DNA of 64,000 nucleotides from a virus. Of this stretch, positions 14,804-42,214 are shown piece by piece. Numbering within the stretch: position 1 is the first letter of the stretch; every line of letters starts with the position of its first letter. The notes beneath the pieces are model-generated. The model did no database searches. It was not told where the DNA came from and was given only the letters and a program-made list of their open reading frames with translations. The stretch lies in IMG/VR virus record IMGVR_UViG_3300011271_000003, positions 34,805 to 98,804 of that record, one strand, 5' to 3'. A program made the translations under genes and the position numbers.

Positions 14804-15229
14804 TCATCCTGTAGCCTCCAGACGCTCAAGTTTCGCCTCTACTGCCTGGAGGCGCTTGTTAATCTCTAGGAAGCGTTGCTCTAGCGCTCCCAGTCTGGTG
14901 CCTCGTACTTTCTGAGCCTTTGCGACCCTCATAAAGACGTCAATGTCTGGATCGTCGAGTAGCTCCCACCTGGATGCAGCGCTCCCACCTCCTCGGCTTA
15001 GCTGCTTGATACAGTTCATCTGTTCGAGTCGGTTCAGACATGAAGAATAGTAGGGCGTAGGTAGCTCGAGCTGTCTGAAGAGCTTAGTTGTGTGCCCCTC
15101 CCAGATGAAGGCGTGCCGCTGGTCCCCACCGTCTGGGATGTTAACGGGTATGGCCCCTGTCTTCATTGCTGCGAACACTCTGCAGACATGTTCGTAGAGT
15201 TTTGGTGGAGCGCTTCGCATTGCGGTCAT
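14804..15229 (-). CDS. Probable winged-helix protein with C-terminal coiled coil
   Basis: LFRQLELPTPYYSSCLNRLEQMNCIKQLSRGG..SRWEL, then heptad tail LEQRFLEINKRLQAVEAKLERLE. Confidence 0.55.
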   Translation of the reverse strand: MTAMRSAPPKLYEHVCRVFAAMKTGAIPVNIPDGGDQRHAFIWEGHTTKLFRQLELPTPYYSSCLNRLEQMNCIKQLSRGGGSAASRWELLDDPDIDVFMRVAKAQKVRGTRLGALEQRFLEINKRLQAVEAKLERLEATG

Positions 15230-15689
15230 GCGGGCTCCAGCTTGGCCCTGATTCGTTCTGCTGTTCTAGCTGCGTCGTCCATCGCGAGTGCGACTCCTAG
15301 TAGGTCTTCCCAGCTCTTGAGAGTGGGATCTGACGCTATATGTTTCTGCTGTGCATCTTTTTGGTCCGCCCAACCTTCGAGCACCGTGTCGAGTATGAAT
15401 GCTAGGACATCGGTCTCGTCGTTGTCGAGCTCAAGGGTCATACTCTGACCTCCGTTGTGTAACACAAAAATCTGCCAAAATATATACGCCATCCACCCTC
15501 AGCGTCACCTCACGACGCCTACACCCGTGGCCTCCCGCGGTCCTACAGAAGCTATTCACCTTCATCCTCATGTCAGAAGGACTGAGCAGGCTCTCTTTTT
15601 CGGCATCCGCTACTGTTAGTGTTCCTTCGACAAGCGGTCGTCGACTACGACGAGAGTTATCTGTGACCTGAAACACAGACAATGACTGT

Positions 15690-16445
15690 TGTAACCGGCC
15701 GGTGAATGGGCCAGCGCTTCTGCAGGCGCTTCCTTGTACTGGTCTGGGTCCGATAGCTCACAGCGCCTTCACGTACACCATCGGACCCAGAAACTCCTAA
15801 GTGCCAGGGTGCCGCAGGGGTAGTGGTCACTAGTAACCAGCGCGCGTTACCCCTGCGACAGAGCGGAATCGAACCGTCCAGCATTACGATCTGCCCAAAT
15901 CTGTGTTGTTGTAAGTTCGGGCTCCGGGAGTCCTGTTCCTGGCCGGCTGACAACCGACCGTTACGGAACAGGACTCCCGTGAGGGTTTAGCCCGACGCGC
16001 TGTGCCCTGCACCTCGAAGAGGTGGACGCTCCCTCGCTATTCCTGGCCCCTTGCCAGTCACGGCTACTCACCAGGACTTTTGCGTCCAGCTCACAGCTCT
16101 AGGCACGTCGGCATCCGACACTTTCGTTCGGACCTCACTGCGAGCTGAACGTGGTGGCGCGCTTACCGTATCGTACCGTGCCATCTGTTAGCTGGCACGG
16201 GCATTTAAGGTAAGCGCGCTGTTTACGACCGGCTCCTCAGGGGCTCCTATACTTGCCGCTCGCGCGGGCCTTGCTGAGGACTTACCTGGTTGACCAGCGC
16301 CCGCCATCCCATTGGATGGCGGGCGTATCCAGTTCGAGGGTGGTCAGTGCCTACCGGTCCGTCTTCCCAGAGGGCGGTTCGGGTTCCCCACTCTCTGGGC
16401 GCTCCTTGTCACCGTACTAATCCGTCATGGGACGAGGAGCCTGTC
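15690..16445 (-). ncRNA. Large (~750 nt) highly structured non-coding RNA candidate; ends approximate
   Basis: No credible ORF; dense long inverted repeats (15, 12, 12, 11 and 9 bp); GNRA tetraloops on the - strand (AC-GAAA-GT, CCGC-GCGA-GCGG); internal T-loop GGTTCGATTCC at ~15865-15875. Confidence 0.7.
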
Positions 16446-16446
16446 T

Positions 16447-16461
16447 CTATTGAGTTGTCAA
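16447..16461 (-). promoter_or_regulatory. boxA-like antitermination motif (actinobacterial rrn leader type)
   Basis: TTGACAACTCAATAG, identical to 42194-42208 and similar to the rrn leader TTGAGAACTCAATAG. Confidence 0.65.
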
Positions 16462-16706
16462 AAGTTATCGGCGGAGCTGCCCCAGCCACCGGCCTAAGGG
16501 TTTCCACGACAGCTCCGCCTTCGGCTCTCCGTCAGCTTTGATCGTGTGCCTGCTCTCAAGGAACTAGCATCGATCTCGAGCTTTTGGCGAACCTAGTCAG
16601 CGGTGGAAGTTTGACCTCCCACCGCCGTCGACCGGTCTCAGCGTGTCGGCGCTGGCCTTGTCGATCCGGCGCTCGGTCAGCGACACCCGACCTGCGTACC
16701 GGAGCG

Positions 16707-16780
16707 TGGACCAGACGGGGTTCGAACCCGCGACTTTCCCGATGCTAGGCACGTCTGCCTAGACCCGCGCATACTGGCCC
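16707..16780 (-). ncRNA. 74-nt tRNA-like RNA lacking a D-stem and anticodon loop
   Basis: Acceptor GGGCCAG/CTGGTCC+A, T-arm GCGGG-TTCGAAC-CCCGT, central hairpin CTAGGCA-GACG-TGCCTAG. Confidence 0.75.
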
Positions 16781-16785
16781 ATCCG

Positions 16786-16885
16786 TGGGTGGGAGGGATT
16801 TGAACCCTCGAGCAGTTTCGCTGGGAGCAGCGACCCCGCGATACTTCCCTAGTATCACCGAACGGCCTCTAGCGGCATACCACCC
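16786..16885 (-). ncRNA. ~100-nt atypical tRNA-like RNA
   Basis: Acceptor GGGTGG/CCACCC, T-arm GAGGG-TTCAAAT-CCCTC, mini D-arm GCC/GGC, 8-bp stem GTGATACT/AGTATCGC with a 5-nt loop, extra arm TCGCTG/CAGCGA. Confidence 0.7.
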
Positions 16886-16934
16886 TACCACCTTACCGAC
16901 GAGAAGGGCATCAGCTCTTACCGTCGGAGGAGGT

Positions 16935-17525
16935 TTATTCAGCCTCGACGACCTCGGAGCCGTCGGTCACTTCGGCCTCTTCCTCCGCCTCGACCGGAAC
17001 GGTCCCTGGCACCTGCACAGCTGCCTTAGCCGTGGTCGTTCCGGAGGCCTTGGCTGCCTTCTCTGCGGCCTTAGCTGCCTTAGCGTCCGCCTTGGCCTGG
17101 TCACGCTCGCCCTTGCGACCCCACCAGGCTACGACCTCAGCGATCACGACGCCAGGCCGAGTGAGAGTAACGCCGTGCTCGCTGACCTGCGGCTCAGCGA
17201 AGGTGTTGCCCTCCGCGTCGTAGTGCTTGACGGGGAACGGGTCGTCCTTGCCCGGTGACTTCACGAAGCCGTACATGCGCTGCGGCTGGAAGTTCGCATC
17301 CACGAACGGTGCGGATGCGCCTTCCTCCTTGTGCGTCTTCAGCCAGTTCAGCGCCTCGATCGGAGTCGAGACACCTTCCGGCAGCTTGTGCTTCGTAGCC
17401 GGGTTCGTGGTACCTGAGGTCGGCTGCGCTGGGACCGCTTCGGTCCCAGCAACCTCCTGCCCGTTGGTAGCAGCTTCGGCCTGTGCTTCCTCGGCCGCCG
17501 GGGCCTCGGTCTGCATGTCAGTCAT
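16935..17525 (-). CDS. Putative nucleic-acid-binding protein (TP...PQ..YG family) with low-complexity tails; first gene of the ncRNA operon
   Basis: STPIEALNWL...FQPQRMYGFVKS core, AKAAKAAEKAAK tail; directly downstream of the 17616-17648 promoter. Confidence 0.7.
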   Translation of the reverse strand: MTDMQTEAPAAEEAQAEAATNGQEVAGTEAVPAQPTSGTTNPATKHKLPEGVSTPIEALNWLKTHKEEGASAPFVDANFQPQRMYGFVKSPGKDDPFPVKHYDAEGNTFAEPQVSEHGVTLTRPGVVIAEVVAWWGRKGERDQAKADAKAAKAAEKAAKASGTTTAKAAVQVPGTVPVEAEEEAEVTDGSEVVEAE

Positions 17526-17615
17526 TTAACGTCCCTCTTCCTTTCTTAGGACTCTTTACGCCCTAGTGGGCTGGCTAGGCTTCTTGCCGAGCCATGCTCT
17601 TGTTGATATATGAAT

Positions 17616-17648
17616 ATTTTATCGCAGGCTCACTGGGGAAGGCAAGGG
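17616..17648 (-). promoter_or_regulatory. sigma70-type promoter
   Basis: CCC-TTGCCT-N18-TAAAAT with upstream A-tract. Confidence 0.7.
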
Positions 17649-17702
17649 CTCAGGTACAGGTTTTTTGAGATTCTTTTGGTCCACTATGTAGCTCTTGGTA
17701 TT

Positions 17703-18071
17703 CTATACACACCTACATGGAGAATAGCCGCATGCTTGGCACGGAGCCTTTTGCCCGTTAGCTTTTGCTGATGATATTCGGCTACACGCTCCGCATCCGC
17801 CGTCTGAGCGACGACCAAAGCGCCTAGTATCATGCCCTCTAGGACATACTTGGTGGTCATACAGCATATGACACCGATGACAAAGTGTCACAAAGGTACT
17901 TCGTGTGCCATGAACGTAAGCCCAGTCCTCTGCCCTACTCTGACATCCGCCCTCGCACAGCTGGAGGTACGCCTGTCCGTACCGTGATCGAAGCACGTAG
18001 TGCAGCTCGTTGTACGATTTCCTGGATACCTTAAACGACACGCATTCGTGACTAGCAAGGGTGACCTGCAC
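17703..18071 (-). CDS. HNH-like Cys/His-rich endonuclease, paralogue of 11876-12289
   Basis: GTG start after AGGAG gives MQVTL as in the paralogue; identical QLCEGGCQSRA block. Confidence 0.7.
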   Translation of the reverse strand: MQVTLASHECVSFKVSRKSYNELHYVLRSRYGQAYLQLCEGGCQSRAEDWAYVHGTRSTFVTLCHRCHMLYDHQVCPRGHDTRRFGRRSDGGCGACSRISSAKANGQKAPCQACGYSPCRCV

Positions 18072-18139: not shown

Positions 18140-18994
18140 TCAGCACCCGCTGATATTATGGAACTGGGTAAGGGCATCGGTTGTCACCTGGTTCGGGTGA
18201 ACGAACAGCGCGATCGTGAATGCCGCCGTCGTATCTGGGGTCCAGATGTCCACGGTTACGCCAGCCGCCTGGAATGCCCTCACCTGGAATCCCGTGAGGT
18301 AGCCCGTAGCCGCATCCACCTGGGACGAGCCGCCCGCTCCTGCTGCTGTCAGTGGCCAGAACGGGGCGACTAGCAGGTGCGTGCGCTCGCCCGGGTAGGC
18401 CTTGCGCACAGCCGCTAGGCCGGTGACCGAGGTACCGGATACGGTAGTGAACGTGCTGGCCGCAGCCGCCTTCATGACCGCAATGTACGCCGCGAACTCA
18501 GCCGCCGTCCAGCTAGATGATTCCTCGACCTCGACCTTCTCTCCGAGGGTCTTGGCTCGCGCCAGGTATGCTGTCAGCGTCGGTAGGTGTTCGTAGGTCA
18601 GTCCTGAGGGCGGCGTTGTCGAAGTGCCAGGTACCAGGTAAAGCCGCTGAGCCGTTAGTTGTGTAACGGTGTAGTTTTGTGGCGGTCCAGTCAGGTTGGT
18701 AAAGTACTGAAGTGCTGCGCCGTGCATAATGATCGGTACAGGTGACTGGCCTCCACCTGACATGTTGACGTCGGTCTCTACCCACGTCGCTTTGCCGTTC
18801 ACTGAAGCCGCTGTGATCGCGCCAAGACTGTTCTCAGGTAGTCCCCAATACGGGTAGTGAAACCCCATATGCGCTACTAGAGTCGGACAAGTTGCTGTCG
18901 CAGCTTGAACGCCTCCTGGAGGAGGAGGCAGGAGTACAGCTATGGCAGCGAGTGCTGCAATTCCGAAATACTTATGAATCTTCATGTCTCTCAC
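18140..18994 (-). CDS. Secreted glycerophosphodiester phosphodiesterase (GDPD)-family protein
   Basis: Signal peptide, VAHMG...PENSLGA, VETDV, IIMHG, LPTL..YL, VDIWTPD and VTTD motifs. Confidence 0.8.
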   Translation of the reverse strand: MRDMKIHKYFGIAALAAIAVLLPPPPGGVQAATATCPTLVAHMGFHYPYWGLPENSLGAITAASVNGKATWVETDVNMSGGGQSPVPIIMHGAALQYFTNLTGPPQNYTVTQLTAQRLYLVPGTSTTPPSGLTYEHLPTLTAYLARAKTLGEKVEVEESSSWTAAEFAAYIAVMKAAAASTFTTVSGTSVTGLAAVRKAYPGERTHLLVAPFWPLTAAGAGGSSQVDAATGYLTGFQVRAFQAAGVTVDIWTPDTTAAFTIALFVHPNQVTTDALTQFHNISGC

Positions 18995-28471: not shown

Positions 28472-28561
28472 CCTCCTTTCAAAGCCCGGCTCAGGCCTTC
28501 CACGGTGGCGATCGTGTGGGTTGGCCACGCCTCCATACCTGAGCCGGACGTTCAACGGAGG
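28472..28561 (-). promoter_or_regulatory. Long intergenic RNA stem with G.G motif, sequestering the SD of gene 28148-28465
   Basis: CCTCC-G-TTGAA-CGT-CCGGCTCAGG...CCTGAGCCGG-GCT-TTGAA-AGGAGG-AACTAT-ATG. Confidence 0.7.
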
Positions 28562-29243
28562 TTACTCCTCGTAGAGGCCGCCTGCGTAAGGTGCATCTGG
28601 TGGGTCCTTGGGTGTTGGAACGTTCCACTGCTCGTTGAAGGCGTCGGTGAGACCTTTGATGACATCCTGCAGGTCGCCAGGATCGAGGTACTTGAGTACG
28701 TCGACGATTTGCTGCGGCGACATTGCGAGATAGGCTACAGCCTCTGAGCCGTCGTCTCGCACTGTTACGATCTGCGTGACAGCGTCGATCGCTGCTGGTG
28801 TCTGCTCGGTCACCTGTACCTCCAGTTCTGCTCGAGATTCGTGTACAGTTCTCGGTCTGACTTGCTTACTGCGTTGCTGGACACTAGGTCAAGCAGCCTT
28901 AGGTACTGGTCGACTGTTACGTACGGAAGCCTAATGTTGTGTCCACCAGGTTCTGGCCGTTGCGCCTCCTCCCGGCTTGGCGTTGGTGCCGCCACATCAT
29001 AGTCCTTCTCAGCCTGACATAGGCTGCACGTATCATGACGGACGTTGTCGTGCATCTTATGTAGTTCGATAGGAGTAATATGGTCCACTTCCCTTTTTGG
29101 TGTCATGTCAGCTCACAACCAGTGTAGGAATTCGCTCGTGTATCCCAGCGTGACACAGAGGAAGAATAGTCCAGGGCATATCCAGCGGTTACGCGGTGCT
29201 CTGATGCCTCTGAAGGCACCGAAAATACCAAAGAATTCGAACA

Positions 29244-29816
29244 TTAGGTTTTCTCCTTTTCTTGTACGAAGTGAGCAGCTAGTGCCTTGTAGTCCTGGCG
29301 AGGCCTTCCCGCCCTCTGCCGAACAAACTGTACTGTCTCCTCAAGGAGGACGCAGTAAGCTATTTCGAATGTCGCTACTAGGTCCTTAACGCGCTCGTGG
29401 GCGTCGTACCCTAGGTCGAACCACTCGCCCTCTTGTCTTTCACGCTGGAGTATCCGATGAAGAAACCGCTCCATCTTTCTTCCGCCACGAAAGGCGTCTA
29501 CAAGGTGCAAGTCAGGACAGCCTACTCGCAGTTGGCTTATTCTGCTGTTAACGCTACTAGACGTAAAGCCTATCTTGTATAGGCCCTGGCGCTCACTGTG
29601 GGCTAGGTAGACGCACCCGCTAGTAGCTTTGATCCAGAGCTCTGCTCTGCGTTTCTGTTCGAGCTCCGAAATTGGTACTACGAAGTCCTCCACCTCGTCT
29701 GTCGCGGTAACTTCTCCGCGCTTCGGAAGCGGTCCCTTAGTCGCCTCTAGTCTGGCTAGAATGGCGGCTCGGCTTTCTCGAATTTCTCGAATTTCTCGAA
29801 TTTCTTCACCATTCAT
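29244..29816 (-). CDS. GIY-YIG nuclease (T5orf172/MUG113-like)
   Basis: VYLA...LYKIGFT....RI.QL.VGCP...ERFLH....EGEWF; a 9-bp tandem repeat encodes EIR x3. Confidence 0.85.
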   Translation of the reverse strand: MNGEEIREIREIRESRAAILARLEATKGPLPKRGEVTATDEVEDFVVPISELEQKRRAELWIKATSGCVYLAHSERQGLYKIGFTSSSVNSRISQLRVGCPDLHLVDAFRGGRKMERFLHRILQRERQEGEWFDLGYDAHERVKDLVATFEIAYCVLLEETVQFVRQRAGRPRQDYKALAAHFVQEKEKT

Positions 29817-29886
29817 TTCCTTGCCACCCTCCTTTAAACCTGTTAGCATTTAAAATTGTTGATGAAAAATCTTTGAGGTGCTCCCG

Positions 29887-31047
29887 TCAGAGCTCCATCT
29901 CACCTGGTGCCGTAGCTGGTTCGACGTGCTTGCCCATAGCTGCTAGTTCTGCCTTGAATGTCTCCTCCAGTTCTTCTCGCTTGTAGCCGTTAGCTGGTCC
30001 GTTGCCAACCCAGACGCTGTGTGCTTCTAGGCCTAGGTTCCTGATTGCCTGCGCGACGGCGCGGCTCCCCTGGTTGAGCGAACTCCACCAGGCTCCGCCT
30101 CCGGCCTCATGTACCTGCTTTGCGATATCGGTGACGGTGAGGTTACCTTCGGTGGTGCATACGATAGCCGCGATGTAGTTCCGAAGCTGATCCTGCGGTG
30201 ACAGGATCGTCTCAGAACTTCCGTTCTTCAGGCTCAGCTCTCTACATGCGTCCATGACCATCTGCGGCCACGCGCCTCCTGCGACCTCTGCGATTTGGAA
30301 TAGTGGCTTCCAGATCTGCCGCATTCGCATCTTGAGGCCAACCATCGATGGCTTCGCGTCCAGAATGTCTTCCAGAACCTGCTGGACACGTGCCCCGAGA
30401 GTTCTGCCTGTCGAACGAACCCACTCTCTGTGCGTCGTGGAGTCGTAGCAGTCGTCGTCATCCATCGGGTGTGGTGGCTTCTCCATGAAGATGATGATTG
30501 TCCGTGTCCGTGTGTCCTCCAGGTGCGGGTTACCGAGGAACGCTGCTTGCTTCCCTGAGAAGGCAAGTGCGGCGAATGTGCTCTGGAACCCTGTTGCGTT
30601 TAGTGACTGTCCGGTGTCCTCGTAGCCGGTGTTCATGATCTCGAAGATACCCTTAGAGCTGTTGCCTACTCTGGTGACGAGCTTGTGTATCTCGTCCATG
30701 CAGAGCGTCGCTCTCTGTTCTCTGATCACGTTCAGCAGTCCTGGAGCTGTTGCTGTGCTGGCGCCAAAAAGCTTGCCGTTCCGCGACATCAGGCCGTTCA
30801 GCTTGAGTATTGTCGTTTTGCCGCACTCGGAGGTCTCTCCGAGAATGCCCAGCCTTGGCGTCTGGTCGTATGCCAGCTGGTTGTCTGGTGGCTTGATGCA
30901 CCAAGTATGCGCATCCCAAAGCGCCATTGTCGATGCTTTCGCGATACTTAGCGTTGGACTGAACAGGTGAAAAATGTCCATCGCTTCGGTCAGCGCCATG
31001 TCAAGCGGTGTACGCTCAACATGGACTACTGGTGATTCTTCTGACAT
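29887..31047 (-). CDS. P-loop NTPase, DUF3631-like (replication/primase-associated)
   Basis: PRLGILG...CGKTT, TLCMDE, NTGY, TRTIII.M, WKPLFQIAEVAGGAWP. Confidence 0.75.
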   Translation of the reverse strand: MSEESPVVHVERTPLDMALTEAMDIFHLFSPTLSIAKASTMALWDAHTWCIKPPDNQLAYDQTPRLGILGETSECGKTTILKLNGLMSRNGKLFGASTATAPGLLNVIREQRATLCMDEIHKLVTRVGNSSKGIFEIMNTGYEDTGQSLNATGFQSTFAALAFSGKQAAFLGNPHLEDTRTRTIIIFMEKPPHPMDDDDCYDSTTHREWVRSTGRTLGARVQQVLEDILDAKPSMVGLKMRMRQIWKPLFQIAEVAGGAWPQMVMDACRELSLKNGSSETILSPQDQLRNYIAAIVCTTEGNLTVTDIAKQVHEAGGGAWWSSLNQGSRAVAQAIRNLGLEAHSVWVGNGPANGYKREELEETFKAELAAMGKHVEPATAPGEMEL

Positions 31048-31327
31048 GATTTCCCTATCGGTTGTAGTCCTACCCTTTGCTACTTACCCCTTTTCTACAT
31101 TCGCTACTGTTGTGACGAAGACGTCTGCGTGATACTTTTTGCCTTCGACGTTCCCAGCCTGTGTGGTAGCAGAGTCGGTTTTGCCTGCCTCGTAGACACA
31201 ATAAGGATCGCTTACAGCTAGCTCGGCATTGTCGAAGAACTCTTTTGCCTTCTCGAATGCGTCCTCTTGGATCTCTTTGTTAGTGTCACCAAATGCGAGA
31301 ACATGTAGTACTCCGTCCATGTTGTTT

Positions 31328-31384
31328 ACCTCCTTTCAGGACCAGCTCGAGTTGGGGAACTCGAGCTGATCCTCAACCGGAGGT
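31328..31384 (-). promoter_or_regulatory. G.G-motif RNA stem sequestering the SD of gene 31084-31320
   Basis: ACCTCC-GG-TTGAGGATCAGCTCGAGTT/AACTCGAGCTGGTCCTGAA-AGGAGGT. Confidence 0.75.
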
Positions 31385-31447
31385 GCAGTTTGTGGTCAGC
31401 ACCAGGGTTGACCAACCGTCCAGATCAAGGTGTTTGTGTAGCCCCGT

Positions 31448-31465
31448 TCACTCCTCAGCGGCCAT
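31448..31465 (-). CDS. 5-codon minigene MAAEE
   Basis: Perfect SD AAGGAGGTGA followed by CACG-ATG; lies between two G.G stems. Confidence 0.5.
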   Translation of the reverse strand: MAAEE

Positions 31466-31529
31466 CGTGTCACCTCCTTCGTCGTATGACAGAGGACAGT
31501 CCATAAGGGTACCTGCATGGTACAGGTGG

Positions 31530-31602
31530 CCCTGCCCTCAAAGTCCGCCTCGGTTCCCAGCGTCTCTTTTGAGGCCCACCGAGGCGGCCGTTCAGGGAAG
31601 GA
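31530..31602 (-). promoter_or_regulatory. G.G-motif RNA stem with alternative pseudoknot pairing
   Basis: TCCTTCCCTGAA...TTGAGGGCAGGG enclosing CCGCCTCGGT/ACCGAGGCGG. Confidence 0.65.
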
Positions 31603-32973
31603 TCACGCTTTCAGTTGGTTTGGGCCTTCTACGATATGGAACGGCCCGCCGGGATGGTCGGACCAGGCGGACCAGGCGGGAGTGCTGCCAGATCGCAGCA
31701 CTTCGAGTAGGTTGCGAAATCCCTGCTCGTCGTCGAACTCGATCCTGTACACCTGTGTTACAGGATACGTTACAGTCGGTGACTCGATGTCGGCTTCGGT
31801 TGTGATGTCTGTGACGGTGCTAACGTAGGTAATGAGCGCTTCAGGCATCTCAGATCACGTCCTTCTCTGTCATTATGTGTCTCTGCTCCTCGGACCTGTA
31901 AAAGTCGTTGCCGACCTTACTCCAGTCGTGGCCCTCGGCACACTGCCAGTGGCTTCCAGTTCCTGGAGCACCATAATGCCCCTGGAATCGCAATTCCACC
32001 AAGGCGCCTCGATCGTGCAGCGGACATACTCCCTGACGTAGCAGAACCTGCTGAAGCTGGTGTATTGCCTGCTCAACGTCTGACGTGAGCGTCAGCCTCA
32101 CGTCCGGGCACTCAGGCATTGCTCCTCCATGGAGTAAAGGCCTCTGGCGTCGCTGGTACCCAGCATCTACCGTCAAGGCTGCAAGCGTGCCCTTCCTGTA
32201 GTTCATGATCCGGATGCCAGGGCGCTGGACAGAGTTCCCACCAGTTCTTGCTGTCGAACATGACGTTCGGACGCTTAGGCATTTTTCACCTCCGTCTCTG
32301 CGGCGTAGCTTCCAATCACGTCGCTCAGGCTCGTTAGTTCGTCCTTACTGCTCGGGAGCGTGCAGTGGTAGTACGCACGGTCTTGCTCAGCCGCACTCTG
32401 GCAGTACAAGGTCACAAGGTTTGGGTCACGGTCTGCTCTGATCGCCCAGCCCTGCTTCTGCTCAGCCTCCGTCAGGTCTGTTATCGCTTCTGCTGACATG
32501 TTCACCTCCTCTCGAAGATCACCTTCGGGTTGAGAATGTACTCGGTCTCGCTGTCGTAGCGACTCAGCATACCCATTCCGGCCTCGACTCGGTACACTGC
32601 TCCCCAGACTGTTTGCCCCTCAGGTGTCGTGTACTCCACGATCCGTACGACATCGAATCGCATGCCGTCCTCGGGATCAGCCTCGCCGTTCCTGGCGATC
32701 ATCTTGTCGATGATCTCCTTAGTGACGAATGTGCCCACTACACCATCTCCTCTGCGAACTGCTTGATGCTGAGTGCCAGGTTCAGCAGCTCAGTCTTGTC
32801 CGTCGGTAGGTGGGTATGGTAGTACCCTATCGGTACGGTTGCGTCCGTGCGCTGTGTGTAGAGCTTCAGCTCCGGCCCACGTTCGCCTGCCACGTAGCGG
32901 AATGCTACGTGGCGCTTCTGCTCGCTTGGCGTCAGGAAGATCGCATCTTCCCAGCTTTCGATTGACATGTTTA

Positions 32974-33034
32974 ACCTCCTTTCAGGATTGCTCCCGCCTC
33001 TGTGGCGAGCACGGGAGCAATCCTCAACGAAGGT
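32974..33034 (-). promoter_or_regulatory. G.G-motif RNA stem sequestering the SD of gene 32738-32968
   Basis: ACCTTC-G-TTGAGGATTGCTCCCG/CGGGAGCAATCCTGAA-AGGAGGT. Confidence 0.75.
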
Positions 33035-33055
33035 GCCGTCGATCGTGCCGTTCTA

Positions 33056-33088
33056 TCAGGAGCTGTCGCTACGGCCGTTGAGTTTCAT
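33056..33088 (-). CDS. 10-codon minigene MKLNGRSDSS
   Basis: SD GGGAGGTGA followed by CCGA-ATG, double stop TGATAG; lies between two G.G stems. Confidence 0.5.
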   Translation of the reverse strand: MKLNGRSDSS

Positions 33089-33101
33089 TCGGTCACCTCC
33101 C

Positions 33102-33230
33102 TCCTTCCTTCAATCGCCTGCACGAAGGAGATACGCACCATGAGCACGCATTGGCTCATACTATCCACCGGCGTAGCCCGGTGAGGTGCACTTGCGTTCT
33201 TTTCCGTCGTGCAGGACGTTCAAGGTAGGA
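33102..33230 (-). ncRNA. Multibranch structured RNA element closed by a G.G-motif stem
   Basis: TCCTACCTTGAA/TTGAAGGAAGGA, CCTGCACGA/TCGTGCAGG, GCACC/GGTGC, CACCGG/CCGGTG, ATGAGC/GCTCAT. Confidence 0.6.
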
Positions 33231-41781: not shown

Positions 41782-42214
41782 TACAACTTAACAACTCAAT
41801 AGTGTGTTTGTGTGTGTTAAACGTTCTAGCTAGTTGTTGACGTCTCGTTCACGTATTGTGTTGCGAGCTCTGAGTAGTTGACTTTACTTCTTCCTGAACG
41901 ACCGTTCTTGCGGTTGTCGATTTCTTGTGTCAACCACTTGTTGAATGACTCACCATCGAACATCACTTTGATTCCATGACCCTTACCACCAGCAGCTTTG
42001 AACTGCTTGTAGTTCGATGCGATCGTTCCTGACTTCGCGTAACCATAGAATGGTTGTGGATCTAGCTCGACGTTGATGTGGTTCTTCGCAAACATGATGT
42101 TGGTGATCATCATCGCAGCGTAAGGTGTGAGATCTTGCATGTTGGTTCACTCATTTCTTTTGTTGAAGTTTTGTTTGATCTCACACAAACACACTATTGA
42201 GTTGTCAAGTTGCA
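41782..42214 (-). repeat. 33-bp inverted repeat (41782-41814 / 42182-42214) enclosing gene 41826-42140; includes boxA at 42194-42208
   Basis: 31/33 Watson-Crick pairs; both mismatches are G.U on the - strand transcript. Confidence 0.9.
41826..42140 (-). CDS. First gene of the leftward arm; LTPY...PQPFYG family protein
   Basis: Paralogue of 39577-40005. Confidence 0.8.
   Translation of the reverse strand: MQDLTPYAAMMITNIMFAKNHINVELDPQPFYGYAKSGTIASNYKQFKAAGGKGHGIKVMFDGESFNKWLTQEIDNRKNGRSGRSKVNYSELATQYVNETSTTS

What the first reader, a model, noticed from the sequence alone, without database searches (positions are those of the whole stretch)
15690..17648. A phage non-coding RNA operon built like an rRNA operon: promoter, binding protein, two tRNA mimics, boxA, giant structured RNA
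Seen (- strand, in order): promoter 17648-17616; 196-aa putative nucleic-acid-binding protein; tRNA-like units 16885-16786 and 16780-16707 only 5 nt apart; ~230 nt of further hairpins; boxA-like TTGACAACTCAATAG at 16461-16447; then ~750 nt with no credible ORF but many long stems. Known: boxA recruits Nus factors so untranslated RNA escapes Rho, tRNA folds direct RNase P and 3-prime processing, and GOLLD and ROOL are large phage RNAs found beside tRNAs. Inference: a processed multi-RNA transcript whose tRNA mimics act as punctuation or decoys, with the upstream protein as a possible partner. This is the best candidate for an undescribed system in the window.
Basis: partly seen in the sequence, partly recalled or inferred. 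Interest (0 to 1): 0.9.

Follow-up and report, generated by a model that had tools for sequence, protein, structure and literature searches.

The report
Phage stable-RNA operon with rrn-type leader
An uncultured soil-type phage carries, behind a well-promoted small protein gene, about 1.5 kb of untranslated, hairpin-dense RNA that holds two tRNA-shaped units and a ribosomal-RNA-style "keep transcribing" signal; it looks real but is more likely a row of small folded RNA modules than one giant RNA, and its function is unknown.

Summary
It runs: sigma-70-like promoter (17645-17616), 196-aa ORF, two non-canonical tRNA-shaped units, about 230 nt of hairpins, a boxA-like motif, then hairpin-dense RNA with no credible ORF. 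The untranslated stretch is longer than stated: 1,493 nt (16934-15442), ending at a terminator-like hairpin with a U tract (15505-15486).

Folding is far more stable than shuffled controls only between about 15850 and 16750. It favours the sense strand here and in four relatives. No Rfam family matches (no GOLLD, ROOL, tmRNA, Y RNA or RNase P).

The slot lies between two conserved genes in a family of about 25 uncultured phages. Its length varies from about 40 to 1,490 nt. In relatives it holds real tRNAs, the same motif and shuffled RNA modules.

One window hairpin (16223-16150) recurs in two distant relatives with compensatory base changes. The rest has no detectable homologue, so covariation cannot be tested.

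The motif resembles rrn-leader boxA/boxC. In unrelated phages it sits just ahead of tmRNA and tRNA genes.

Verdict: a probable phage stable-RNA operon that uses host rrn-type antitermination, modular rather than one ornate RNA. Expression is untested. This scan has noted similar layouts on other phage DNA.

The parts
17616..17645 (-). sigma-70-type promoter-like site (TTGCCT, 18 nt, TAAAAT)
   Evidence: Relatives have TATAAT-type boxes at the same distance upstream of their homologous gene.
16935..17525 (-). 196-aa protein gene: acidic N-terminus, conserved about 110-aa core, Lys/Ala-rich helix, acidic tail
   Evidence: No Pfam or PHROG family. AlphaFold core pLDDT above 90. Only weak fold matches to Xis/MerR/BldC-type winged helix.
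16896..16927 (-). hairpin just after the stop codon, no U tract
   Evidence: Read from the sequence.
16786..16885 (-). tRNA-shaped unit 1: acceptor stem, T arm, long extra arm, central stem with a 5-nt loop
   Evidence: Fold (z -2.3). Not called by ARAGORN at default settings. T arm aligns with relatives' units, with covariation.
16707..16780 (-). tRNA-shaped unit 2: G3:U70, A73, canonical T arm, no D stem, 7-bp stem with a 4-nt loop in place of the anticodon arm
16470..16703 (-). block of stable hairpins. The last one (16519-16470, 12-bp stem) sits 8 nt before the motif, in a boxB-like position
   Evidence: pair probabilities 0.9-1.0. (z -2.6 to -4.4).
16445..16464 (-). boxA/boxC-like motif CUUUUGACAACUCAAUAGAG, predicted single-stranded
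   Evidence: Conserved core ACAACUnAAUAG in relatives. Resembles the rrn leader.
16150..16223 (-). conserved hairpin module: 11-12 bp outer stem, internal loop with GUACGA(A/U)ACGG, inner stem
   Evidence: A covariance model built from relative L080 alone hits here at E 0.0003. 13 of 24 pairs show changes on both sides across 3 sequences.
15743..16444 (-). hairpin-dense untranslated RNA, about 14 stem-loops, several 12-15 bp with G-U pairs on this strand
15476..15505 (-). intrinsic-terminator-like hairpin plus U tract, overlapping a promoter-like site for the next gene
15226..15441 (-). conserved downstream gene (about 71 aa from the ATG at 15441) that bounds the slot
   Evidence: tblastn to relatives.

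Best explanation
This is a phage stable-RNA operon.

Proposed mechanism:
1. A host-type promoter drives a transcript that first encodes an abundant small protein.
2. The transcript continues for about 1.5 kb without translation.
3. Two tRNA-shaped units probably serve as handles for RNase P and 3'-end processing, which would free the mRNA from the RNA part.
4. A hairpin followed by a single-stranded rrn-type boxA/boxC-like element then loads host Nus factors, so that RNA polymerase is not stopped by Rho on the remaining about 950 nt.
5. Transcription ends at the hairpin and U tract at 15505-15486.

The RNA part is a row of stem-closed modules that this phage family gains, loses and shuffles. 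It is not one globally folded molecule.

Shown: the anatomy, the strand bias of folding, conserved synteny, motif conservation, and one module with compensatory changes.

Inferred: co-transcription, processing, Nus factor loading, and any function of the modules. Small stable RNAs or decoys for host RNA-binding or tRNA-targeting factors is my guess.
For: - Anatomy.
- Structure: z -2.4 to -6.4 only inside 15850-16750.
- Strand: the sense strand folds 31-59 kcal/mol better than the antisense in the window, L005, L089, L085 and L080. It also has more confident G-U pairs: 20 v 7, 18 v 3, 14 v 0 and 20 v 10, but only 9 v 8 in L089.
- Coding: no conserved peptide and no ORF under recoding.
- Synteny: the slot is bounded by the same two genes in relatives.
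- tRNAs: real tRNA genes lie in the slot in L080, L085-87 and L093. The L005 unit reaches 30.8 bits on the Rfam tRNA model.
- Motif in the family: the core is kept in the window, L005, L089, L073, L076 and L077, with variants in L072, L075, L078 and L080. It usually follows a hairpin or tRNA-like unit. In 5 of 11 loci a helix of 11 bp or more starts within 4 nt after it, which is the 90th-95th percentile of random starts.
- Motif outside the family: Mycobacteriaceae rrn leaders carry GAGAACUCAAUAGUGUGUUUG 120-190 nt before the 16S 5' end. The same phage has two further copies that share 18 nt with that leader.
- Motif against published consensus: the UUUGACAA core differs by one base from E. 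coli UUUAACAA, and that base is the one B. subtilis has (PMC13753749).
- Motif in unrelated IMG/VR phages: it lies 9 nt before a tmRNA gene (L039, L045), inside tRNA arrays (L069, L020), or about 20-25 nt after -10 boxes (L034, L044, L051, L006).
- Module 16223-16150: found by a model built from one relative only (E 0.0003). 91% of cells are paired against 73% in shuffles and 31-46% in slid controls.
Against:
- The motif lies more than 1.1 kb from the only recognised promoter.
- Several relatives have UACAAC without the U run that NusB/S10 is expected to contact.
- GACAACTNAATAG is not enriched in 401 sampled Actinomycetota genomes: 18 hits against about 30 for the reversed control.
- In some unrelated phages the same words form a plain promoter, TTGACA then 17 nt then TATAAT (L008 group, L020, L061).
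- Most of the window's RNA has no detectable homologue.
- The covariation rests on three sequences aligned to the model itself.
Confidence: 0.5

Rival explanations
1. It is one large 'ornate' RNA of about 0.75-1 kb, of the GOLLD/ROOL/OLE kind, with a defined global fold and possibly a protein partner.
For: - About 900 nt of contiguous, GC-enriched sequence with exceptionally stable folding.
- It lies next to tRNA-type elements in a phage, as GOLLD and ROOL often do (PMC5737381).
- Candidate long-range closures exist: 16007-15997 with 15717-15708 (pair probability 0.84), and 16494-16476 with 15715-15697.
- An earlier scan note reports a roughly 1-kb RNA in soil phages with an rrn-like leader (e1-5354198, not tested here).
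Against: - No Rfam match, even at E up to 10.
- All helices with probability 0.9 or more are local hairpins.
- Relatives' slots range from about 40 to 1,490 nt and share only single modules, in different order.
- No primary-sequence homology.
Confidence: 0.15
2. It is a decaying tRNA cluster plus regulatory or DNA-level palindromes (terminators, protein-binding sites, a replication origin), with no function as stable RNA.
For: - Both tRNA-like units fail tRNA detectors.
- Several stems are perfect palindromes of 12-15 bp.
- Slot content turns over quickly among relatives. L074 has almost no spacer.
- The upstream protein shows weak likeness to DNA-binding winged helices.
Against: - The strand asymmetry of folding and of G-U pairs recurs in four of the five loci tested.
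- A module is kept through compensatory changes.
- GC is raised rather than lowered, whereas origins are usually AT-rich.
- All stems of the tRNA-like units are intact.
Confidence: 0.2
3. The conserved motif is not a Nus site. It is instead a binding or processing site for a phage factor (for example the adjacent Lys/Ala-rich protein), or the -35 part of a promoter for the downstream RNA.
For: - The motif always lies next to the conserved protein gene in this family.
- TTGACA is the consensus -35 hexamer, and in some other phages it is followed by TATAAT at 17 nt.
Against: - There is no -10 element 16-18 nt downstream in the window or in L005, L072, L075 or L080.
- Family members with UACAAC lack TTGACA altogether.
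- The same words occur ahead of tmRNA and tRNA genes in phages without this protein and in host rrn leaders.
Confidence: 0.1

Closest known systems
Bacterial rrn operon antitermination signal (boxB hairpin, boxA, boxC; the rrn antitermination complex of NusA, NusB, S10, NusG, SuhB and S4)
   Same: - A hairpin, then a single-stranded boxA-like word with a UUUGACAA core, then CUCAAUAG, ahead of long untranslated structured RNA and after tRNA-type elements. This mirrors the 16S-23S spacer boxA.
- The AAUAG part matches the region of the M. tuberculosis rrn leader reported to bind NusA, where the AUA trinucleotide is critical (PMC2724277). That the bound oligonucleotide reads GAACUCAAUAG is my recollection, and I could not check it.
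   Different: - The upstream product is an mRNA, not 16S rRNA.
- The motif is more than 1 kb from the promoter.
- Some relatives lack the U run.
- No binding or read-through has been measured.
Phage tRNA regions with co-transcribed small stable RNAs (phage T4 tRNA cluster with RNAC and RNAD; my own knowledge)
   Same: Stem-closed small RNAs and tRNA-type units in one untranslated row, mixed with real tRNAs in relatives, with content shuffled between related phages.
   Different: - The window has no canonical tRNA at all.
- The modules are GC-rich hairpins unrelated to those of T4.
- An rrn-type leader element is present.
GOLLD and ROOL large RNAs (PMC5737381; PMC12286853)
   Same: Large non-coding RNA territory in phage DNA, next to tRNA-type genes, with unknown function.
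   Different: - No match to either covariance model.
- No evidence of multistem junctions or pseudoknots.
- Not conserved as a unit among relatives.
tmRNA tRNA-like domain and alanine-type minihelices
   Same: Unit 2 has G3:U70, A73, a T arm and no D stem.
   Different: - No tag reading frame and no pseudoknots.
- ARAGORN finds no tmRNA at default settings.
- 15.9 bits against a 47-bit cut-off.
- No SmpB gene in the phage.

Membership tests
GOLLD / ROOL / OLE and every other Rfam 15 family | Score at or above the family's gathering threshold on its covariance model | tested here: not met
   0 hits in the 64-kb window at gathering thresholds. At E up to 10 over 15200-17800, only chance-level hits and partial tmRNA hits. 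Relatives match tRNA only.
tRNA | Acceptor stem of about 7 bp and a T arm with a GTTCRA-type loop | tested here: met
   Units 1 and 2. The T arm aligns with relatives' units, and 4 of 5 pairs covary.
tRNA | D arm, and a 5-bp anticodon stem with a 7-nt loop (U33, anticodon) | tested here: not met
   Unit 1 has a central stem with the 5-nt loop AGGGA and extra linker bases. Unit 2 has no D stem and a 7-bp stem with a 4-nt loop. ARAGORN at default settings calls nothing. The Rfam tRNA score is below the 15.9-bit tmRNA hit, against a 29-bit cut-off.
tmRNA | tRNA-like domain plus tag reading frame and pseudoknots; SmpB partner | tested here: not met
   15.9 and 14.8 bits against a 47-bit cut-off, covering the acceptor and T arm only. 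ARAGORN -m finds none. No SmpB in the phage genome.
Y RNA / YrlA with Ro | Rfam Y RNA/YrlA match and a TROVE (Ro) gene nearby | tested here: not met
   No Rfam hit. No TROVE domain in the 98.8-kb genome.
rrn-type boxA antitermination site | Sequence match to the boxA consensus (E. coli UGCUCUUUAACA; B. subtilis AUGAUCUUUGAAA) | tested here: inconclusive
   The window has CUUUUGACAA, with core UUUGACAA. L005, L072, L075, L078 and L080 have UUGACAA. L089, L077 and L073 have UACAAC without the U run. Consensus sequences are from PMC13753749.
rrn-type boxA antitermination site | Placed in the transcript ahead of long untranslated RNA, single-stranded, often after a hairpin | tested here: met
   Predicted unpaired, between hairpin 16519-16470 and the next stem. 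The layout is the same in relatives. In unrelated phages it lies before tmRNA and tRNA genes.
rrn-type boxA antitermination site | Binds NusB-S10 and NusA and gives Rho-resistant read-through | not testable with these tools
   Needs binding and reporter assays.
Conserved hairpin module (window, L080, L089) | Outer and inner stems kept by compensatory changes around the GUACGA(A/U)ACGG loop | tested here: met
   Only three sequences, aligned to the model.

The most novel reading that the evidence does not exclude
The locus encodes a previously undescribed kind of phage RNA system. In this reading, the phage borrows the host's ribosomal-RNA antitermination machinery to make a large, processed, multi-part structured RNA. 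Its tRNA mimics include an anticodon-less unit with alanine identity elements. Its hairpin modules would act together, perhaps with the adjacent abundant Lys/Ala-rich protein, as a ribonucleoprotein or as decoys against host RNA-targeting defences.
Probability: 0.15. Interest if true: 0.8.

Novelty: new variant of a known kind. Interest (0 to 1): 0.55.

Why it matters
If transcribed as proposed, the locus shows three things:
- Phages of actinobacteria-like hosts copy the host's rrn antitermination signal to express long untranslated RNA behind an ordinary gene.
- They keep tRNA-shaped units that cannot decode.
- They trade small structured RNA modules between genomes.

It gives concrete, testable objects: a motif to mutate, two tRNA mimics for RNase P and AlaRS assays, and a conserved hairpin with a fixed internal loop. 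These bear on an open question, namely what large non-coding RNA territories in phage genomes are for.

If the RNAs are not made, it is only a fast-evolving spacer.

Tried and rejected
- **Closer homologues.** The contigs of the nearest protein homologues (P0002 and others, 58% identity or less) could not be fetched.
- **Sequence searches.**
  - blastn against INPHARED phages found only a 50-nt hit inside the protein gene.
  - blastn and nhmmer of the window spacer against relatives' spacers found nothing.
  - A pattern scan of IMG/VR for the conserved module found no new strong member.
- **Alignment.** MAFFT and RNAalifold on hand-picked segments misaligned them. Single-sequence covariance models worked instead.
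- **My first guess for the conserved module.** I placed it directly after the motif, at AGUACG near 16418. That was wrong; the model places it at 16223-16150.
- **Module M1.** This roughly 90-nt RNA is conserved in six distant relatives and is absent from the window.
- **RNase P-like reading.** I considered reading GAAGUCC...GGGAACCC in relatives as RNase P-like and dropped it, because no RNase P hit appeared.
- **Protein function.**
  - Foldseek against PDB gave nothing at E 0.001 or better.
  - The ESM Atlas gave no usable hit.
  - VIA-align gave only Z 4.8 or less.
- **Phage-encoded partners.** Ro (TROVE), SmpB and CCA-adding enzyme are absent from the phage genome.
- **Host inference from the GACAAC variant.** It failed, because the variant is not enriched. 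That tally includes the unpublished genomes G019, G089 and G269. No other claim rests on them.
- **Literature.** Beuth 2005 and Arnvig 2004 are not held. The exact NusA-bound oligonucleotide is therefore my recollection.
Full report
**Origin and layout**

The window is the last 64 kb of a 98.8-kb IMG/VR virus record with direct terminal repeats. Genes left of about 42 kb lie on the minus strand, and so does the finding.

Reading the minus strand gives this order:
- A sigma-70-like promoter, TTGCCT, 18 nt, TAAAAT, at 17645-17616.
- A 90-nt leader with a Shine-Dalgarno sequence.
- A 196-aa ORF at 17525-16935.
- 1,493 nt with no credible gene, 16934-15442.
- A conserved small gene whose homology-supported start is the ATG at 15441.
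- Near the end of the spacer, a hairpin and U tract at 15505-15486, the only terminator-like site on this strand.

**Is the spacer non-coding and structured?**

- The longest stop-free stretches are about 100 codons. None has a counterpart in the spacers of related phages. No long frame opens if TGA, TAG or TAA is read through.
- In 150-nt windows the minus-strand folding energy lies 2.4 to 6.4 standard deviations below dinucleotide shuffles, from about 15850 to 16750. In the flanking genes it is about 0.
- The sense strand folds 31 kcal/mol better than the antisense and has 200 pairs at probability 0.9 or more, against 148. It has 20 G-U pairs against 7.
- Sense also folds 32-59 kcal/mol better than antisense in the spacers of relatives L005, L085, L080 and L089. 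In L089 the antisense has more confident pairs, and the G-U counts are about equal.
- GC is 0.62 here against about 0.55 for the genome.
- Almost all confident helices are local hairpins of 12-15 bp, with spans of 71 nt or less. Long-range helices have probabilities of 0.08-0.84.

**Known RNA families**

- Rfam 15 gives nothing at gathering thresholds in the window. At E up to 10 it gives only partial tmRNA-model hits to the acceptor and T-arm parts of the two tRNA-like units, at 15.9 and 14.8 bits against a 47-bit cut-off.
- ARAGORN finds no tRNA or tmRNA in the window or the whole genome at default settings. With relaxed thresholds it gives only distorted cloverleaves.
- Unit 1 (16885-16786) has an acceptor stem, a perfect T arm, a long extra arm and a central stem closed by a 5-nt loop.
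- Unit 2 (16780-16707) has G1-C72, G2-C71, G3:U70, A73 and a T arm. It has no D stem, and a 7-bp stem with a tetraloop stands where the anticodon arm should be.
- The phage encodes no Ro, SmpB or CCA-adding enzyme.

**Relatives**

- The 196-aa protein has 24 homologues, at 58% identity or less, all from metagenomes and without a named family.
- Scans with their alignment fetched 26 loci.
- In those that are long enough, the same two genes bound a non-coding slot of about 40 to 1,490 nt.
- The slot holds tRNA-Met (L080, L085, L086), a long-arm Arg-like tRNA (L085-87), a tRNA-Ala call (L093), a borderline tRNA (L005, 30.8 bits) and further aberrant tRNA-shaped units (L089, L090, L091).
- The window's spacer has no detectable primary-sequence similarity to any of them. 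No closer relative exists in the searched collections.

**The motif**

- TTGACAACTCAATAG (16461-16447) is preceded by CUUU and followed by AG. It is predicted to be unpaired between two stable hairpins.
- The core ACAACUnAAUAG, or a close variant, occurs in the slot of the window, L005, L089, L073, L076, L077, L072, L075, L078 and L080. It usually comes after a hairpin or tRNA-like unit and directly before the 5' strand of a long helix.
- Mycobacteriaceae and other Actinomycetota carry GUGUUGUUUGAGAACUCAAUAGUGUGUUUGGUGG. Where the 16S start could be located (26 of 82 matches), the motif lies 120-190 nt upstream of it.
- The phage has two more copies, at 41791-41802 (+) and 42205-42194 (-).
- Published boxA consensus sequences are UGCUCUUUAACA (E. 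coli) and AUGAUCUUUGAAA (B. subtilis) (PMC13753749). In the M. tuberculosis rrn leader the boxC region binds NusA, and an AUA trinucleotide is critical (PMC2724277).
- In unrelated IMG/VR phages the exact 17-nt word lies in three kinds of place:
  - 9 nt before a tmRNA gene (L039, L045);
  - inside tRNA arrays (L069, L020);
  - about 20-25 nt after -10 boxes (L034 reads UGCUCUUUGACAACU...).
- Caveats:
  - Some occurrences are ordinary promoters.
  - Three relatives lack the U run.
  - The GACAAC variant is not enriched in 401 sampled Actinomycetota genomes. That tally includes the unpublished genomes G019, G089 and G269.

**Conserved modules**

- A covariance model built from one hairpin of relative L080 alone found its counterpart in L089 (E 6e-5) and in the window at 16223-16150 (25.7 bits, E 0.0003 over 208 kb). 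All three lie inside the syntenic slot.
- Across the three, 13 of 24 pairs change on both sides. 91% of cells pair, against 73% in shuffles and 31-46% when partners are slid. The loop strand GUACGA(A/U)ACGG is kept.
- This rests on three sequences fitted to the model. No further strong members were found.
- A second module, M1, of about 90 nt, covaries in six distant relatives but is absent from the window.
- The family's slot is therefore a mosaic of modules in varying order.

**The protein**

- AlphaFold gives a confident core, residues 45-160, followed by a Lys/Ala-rich helix.
- Foldseek finds nothing.
- VIA-align gives only weak matches (Z 3.7-4.8) to excisionase, MerR and BldC-type winged helices.
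- Nucleic-acid binding is plausible, and DNA is more likely than RNA. Partnership with the RNA is untested.

**Conclusion**

The best reading is a stable-RNA operon that uses an rrn-type antitermination element and tRNA-shaped processing handles, and that is built from exchangeable hairpin modules.

A single ornate RNA of the GOLLD/ROOL type is less likely.

Transcription, processing and Nus dependence remain inferred.

This scan has noted similar boxA-led RNA arrays in other phages (e1-5877160, e1-5885586, e1-5703233, e1-5788419, e1-5354198). I could not link any of them to this family by sequence.

Noticed in passing
window 41791-41802 (+) and 42205-42194 (-): Two inverted copies of ACAACTCAATAGTGTGTTTGTGTG flank a 104-aa minus-strand ORF (41826-42140) at the strand-switch region. 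They share 18 nt with the mycobacterial rrn leader. Either transcript would carry the motif at its 5' side and the complement at its 3' side.
   Followed up: partly
L072:5712-5797, L075:5781-5874, L077:5614-5700, L078:5796-5891, L080:5769-5859, L081:5575-5666: A conserved RNA module of about 90 nt (GGGACAACGCUGCUGAGUG ... GGCAAACCAGGCACUGGUGUCCC) with compensatory changes in its closing stem. It lies in the same slot of six distant relatives, matches no Rfam family and is absent from the window.
   Followed up: partly
L039:4819-5191 and L045:3603-3975 (unrelated IMG/VR contigs): The exact motif TTGACAACTAAATAGAG lies 9 nt upstream of a phage-encoded tmRNA (tag AESRSAFALAA), which is followed by tRNA-Trp. 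In L069 and L020 it lies inside tRNA arrays.
   Followed up: partly
L029 (IMGVR_UViG_3300029724_000077), about 1037-1053: The motif occurs inside what looks like a CRISPR spacer, flanked by repeats ending ...CCCCGCACACGCGGGGATAAACCG. This may be a spacer against a phage that carries the motif.
   Followed up: no
window 31520-31609 (-): A weak hit (12 bits, E 1.6) of the L080 hairpin model: another intergenic stem with a GAA-type internal loop. It may belong to the family of intergenic stems that another first-stage note records at 28472-33230.
   Followed up: no
L085:856-947, L090:1062-1179, L091:3425-3553: Oversized tRNA-shaped genes (92-129 nt) that share a D arm (UAGCUCAA) and a GAGAGCC ... 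GAGAUCC frame around a variable inserted hairpin. ARAGORN calls the L085 copy tRNA-Arg(ACG).
   Followed up: partly
window 18140-18994 (-): A 284-aa ORF two genes upstream matches the glycerophosphodiester phosphodiesterase family (PF03009, E 6e-9).
   Followed up: no
window 15479-15508 (-): The terminator-like hairpin at the end of the spacer overlaps a promoter-like site (GTGACG, 18 nt, TATATT) for the downstream conserved gene.
   Followed up: no
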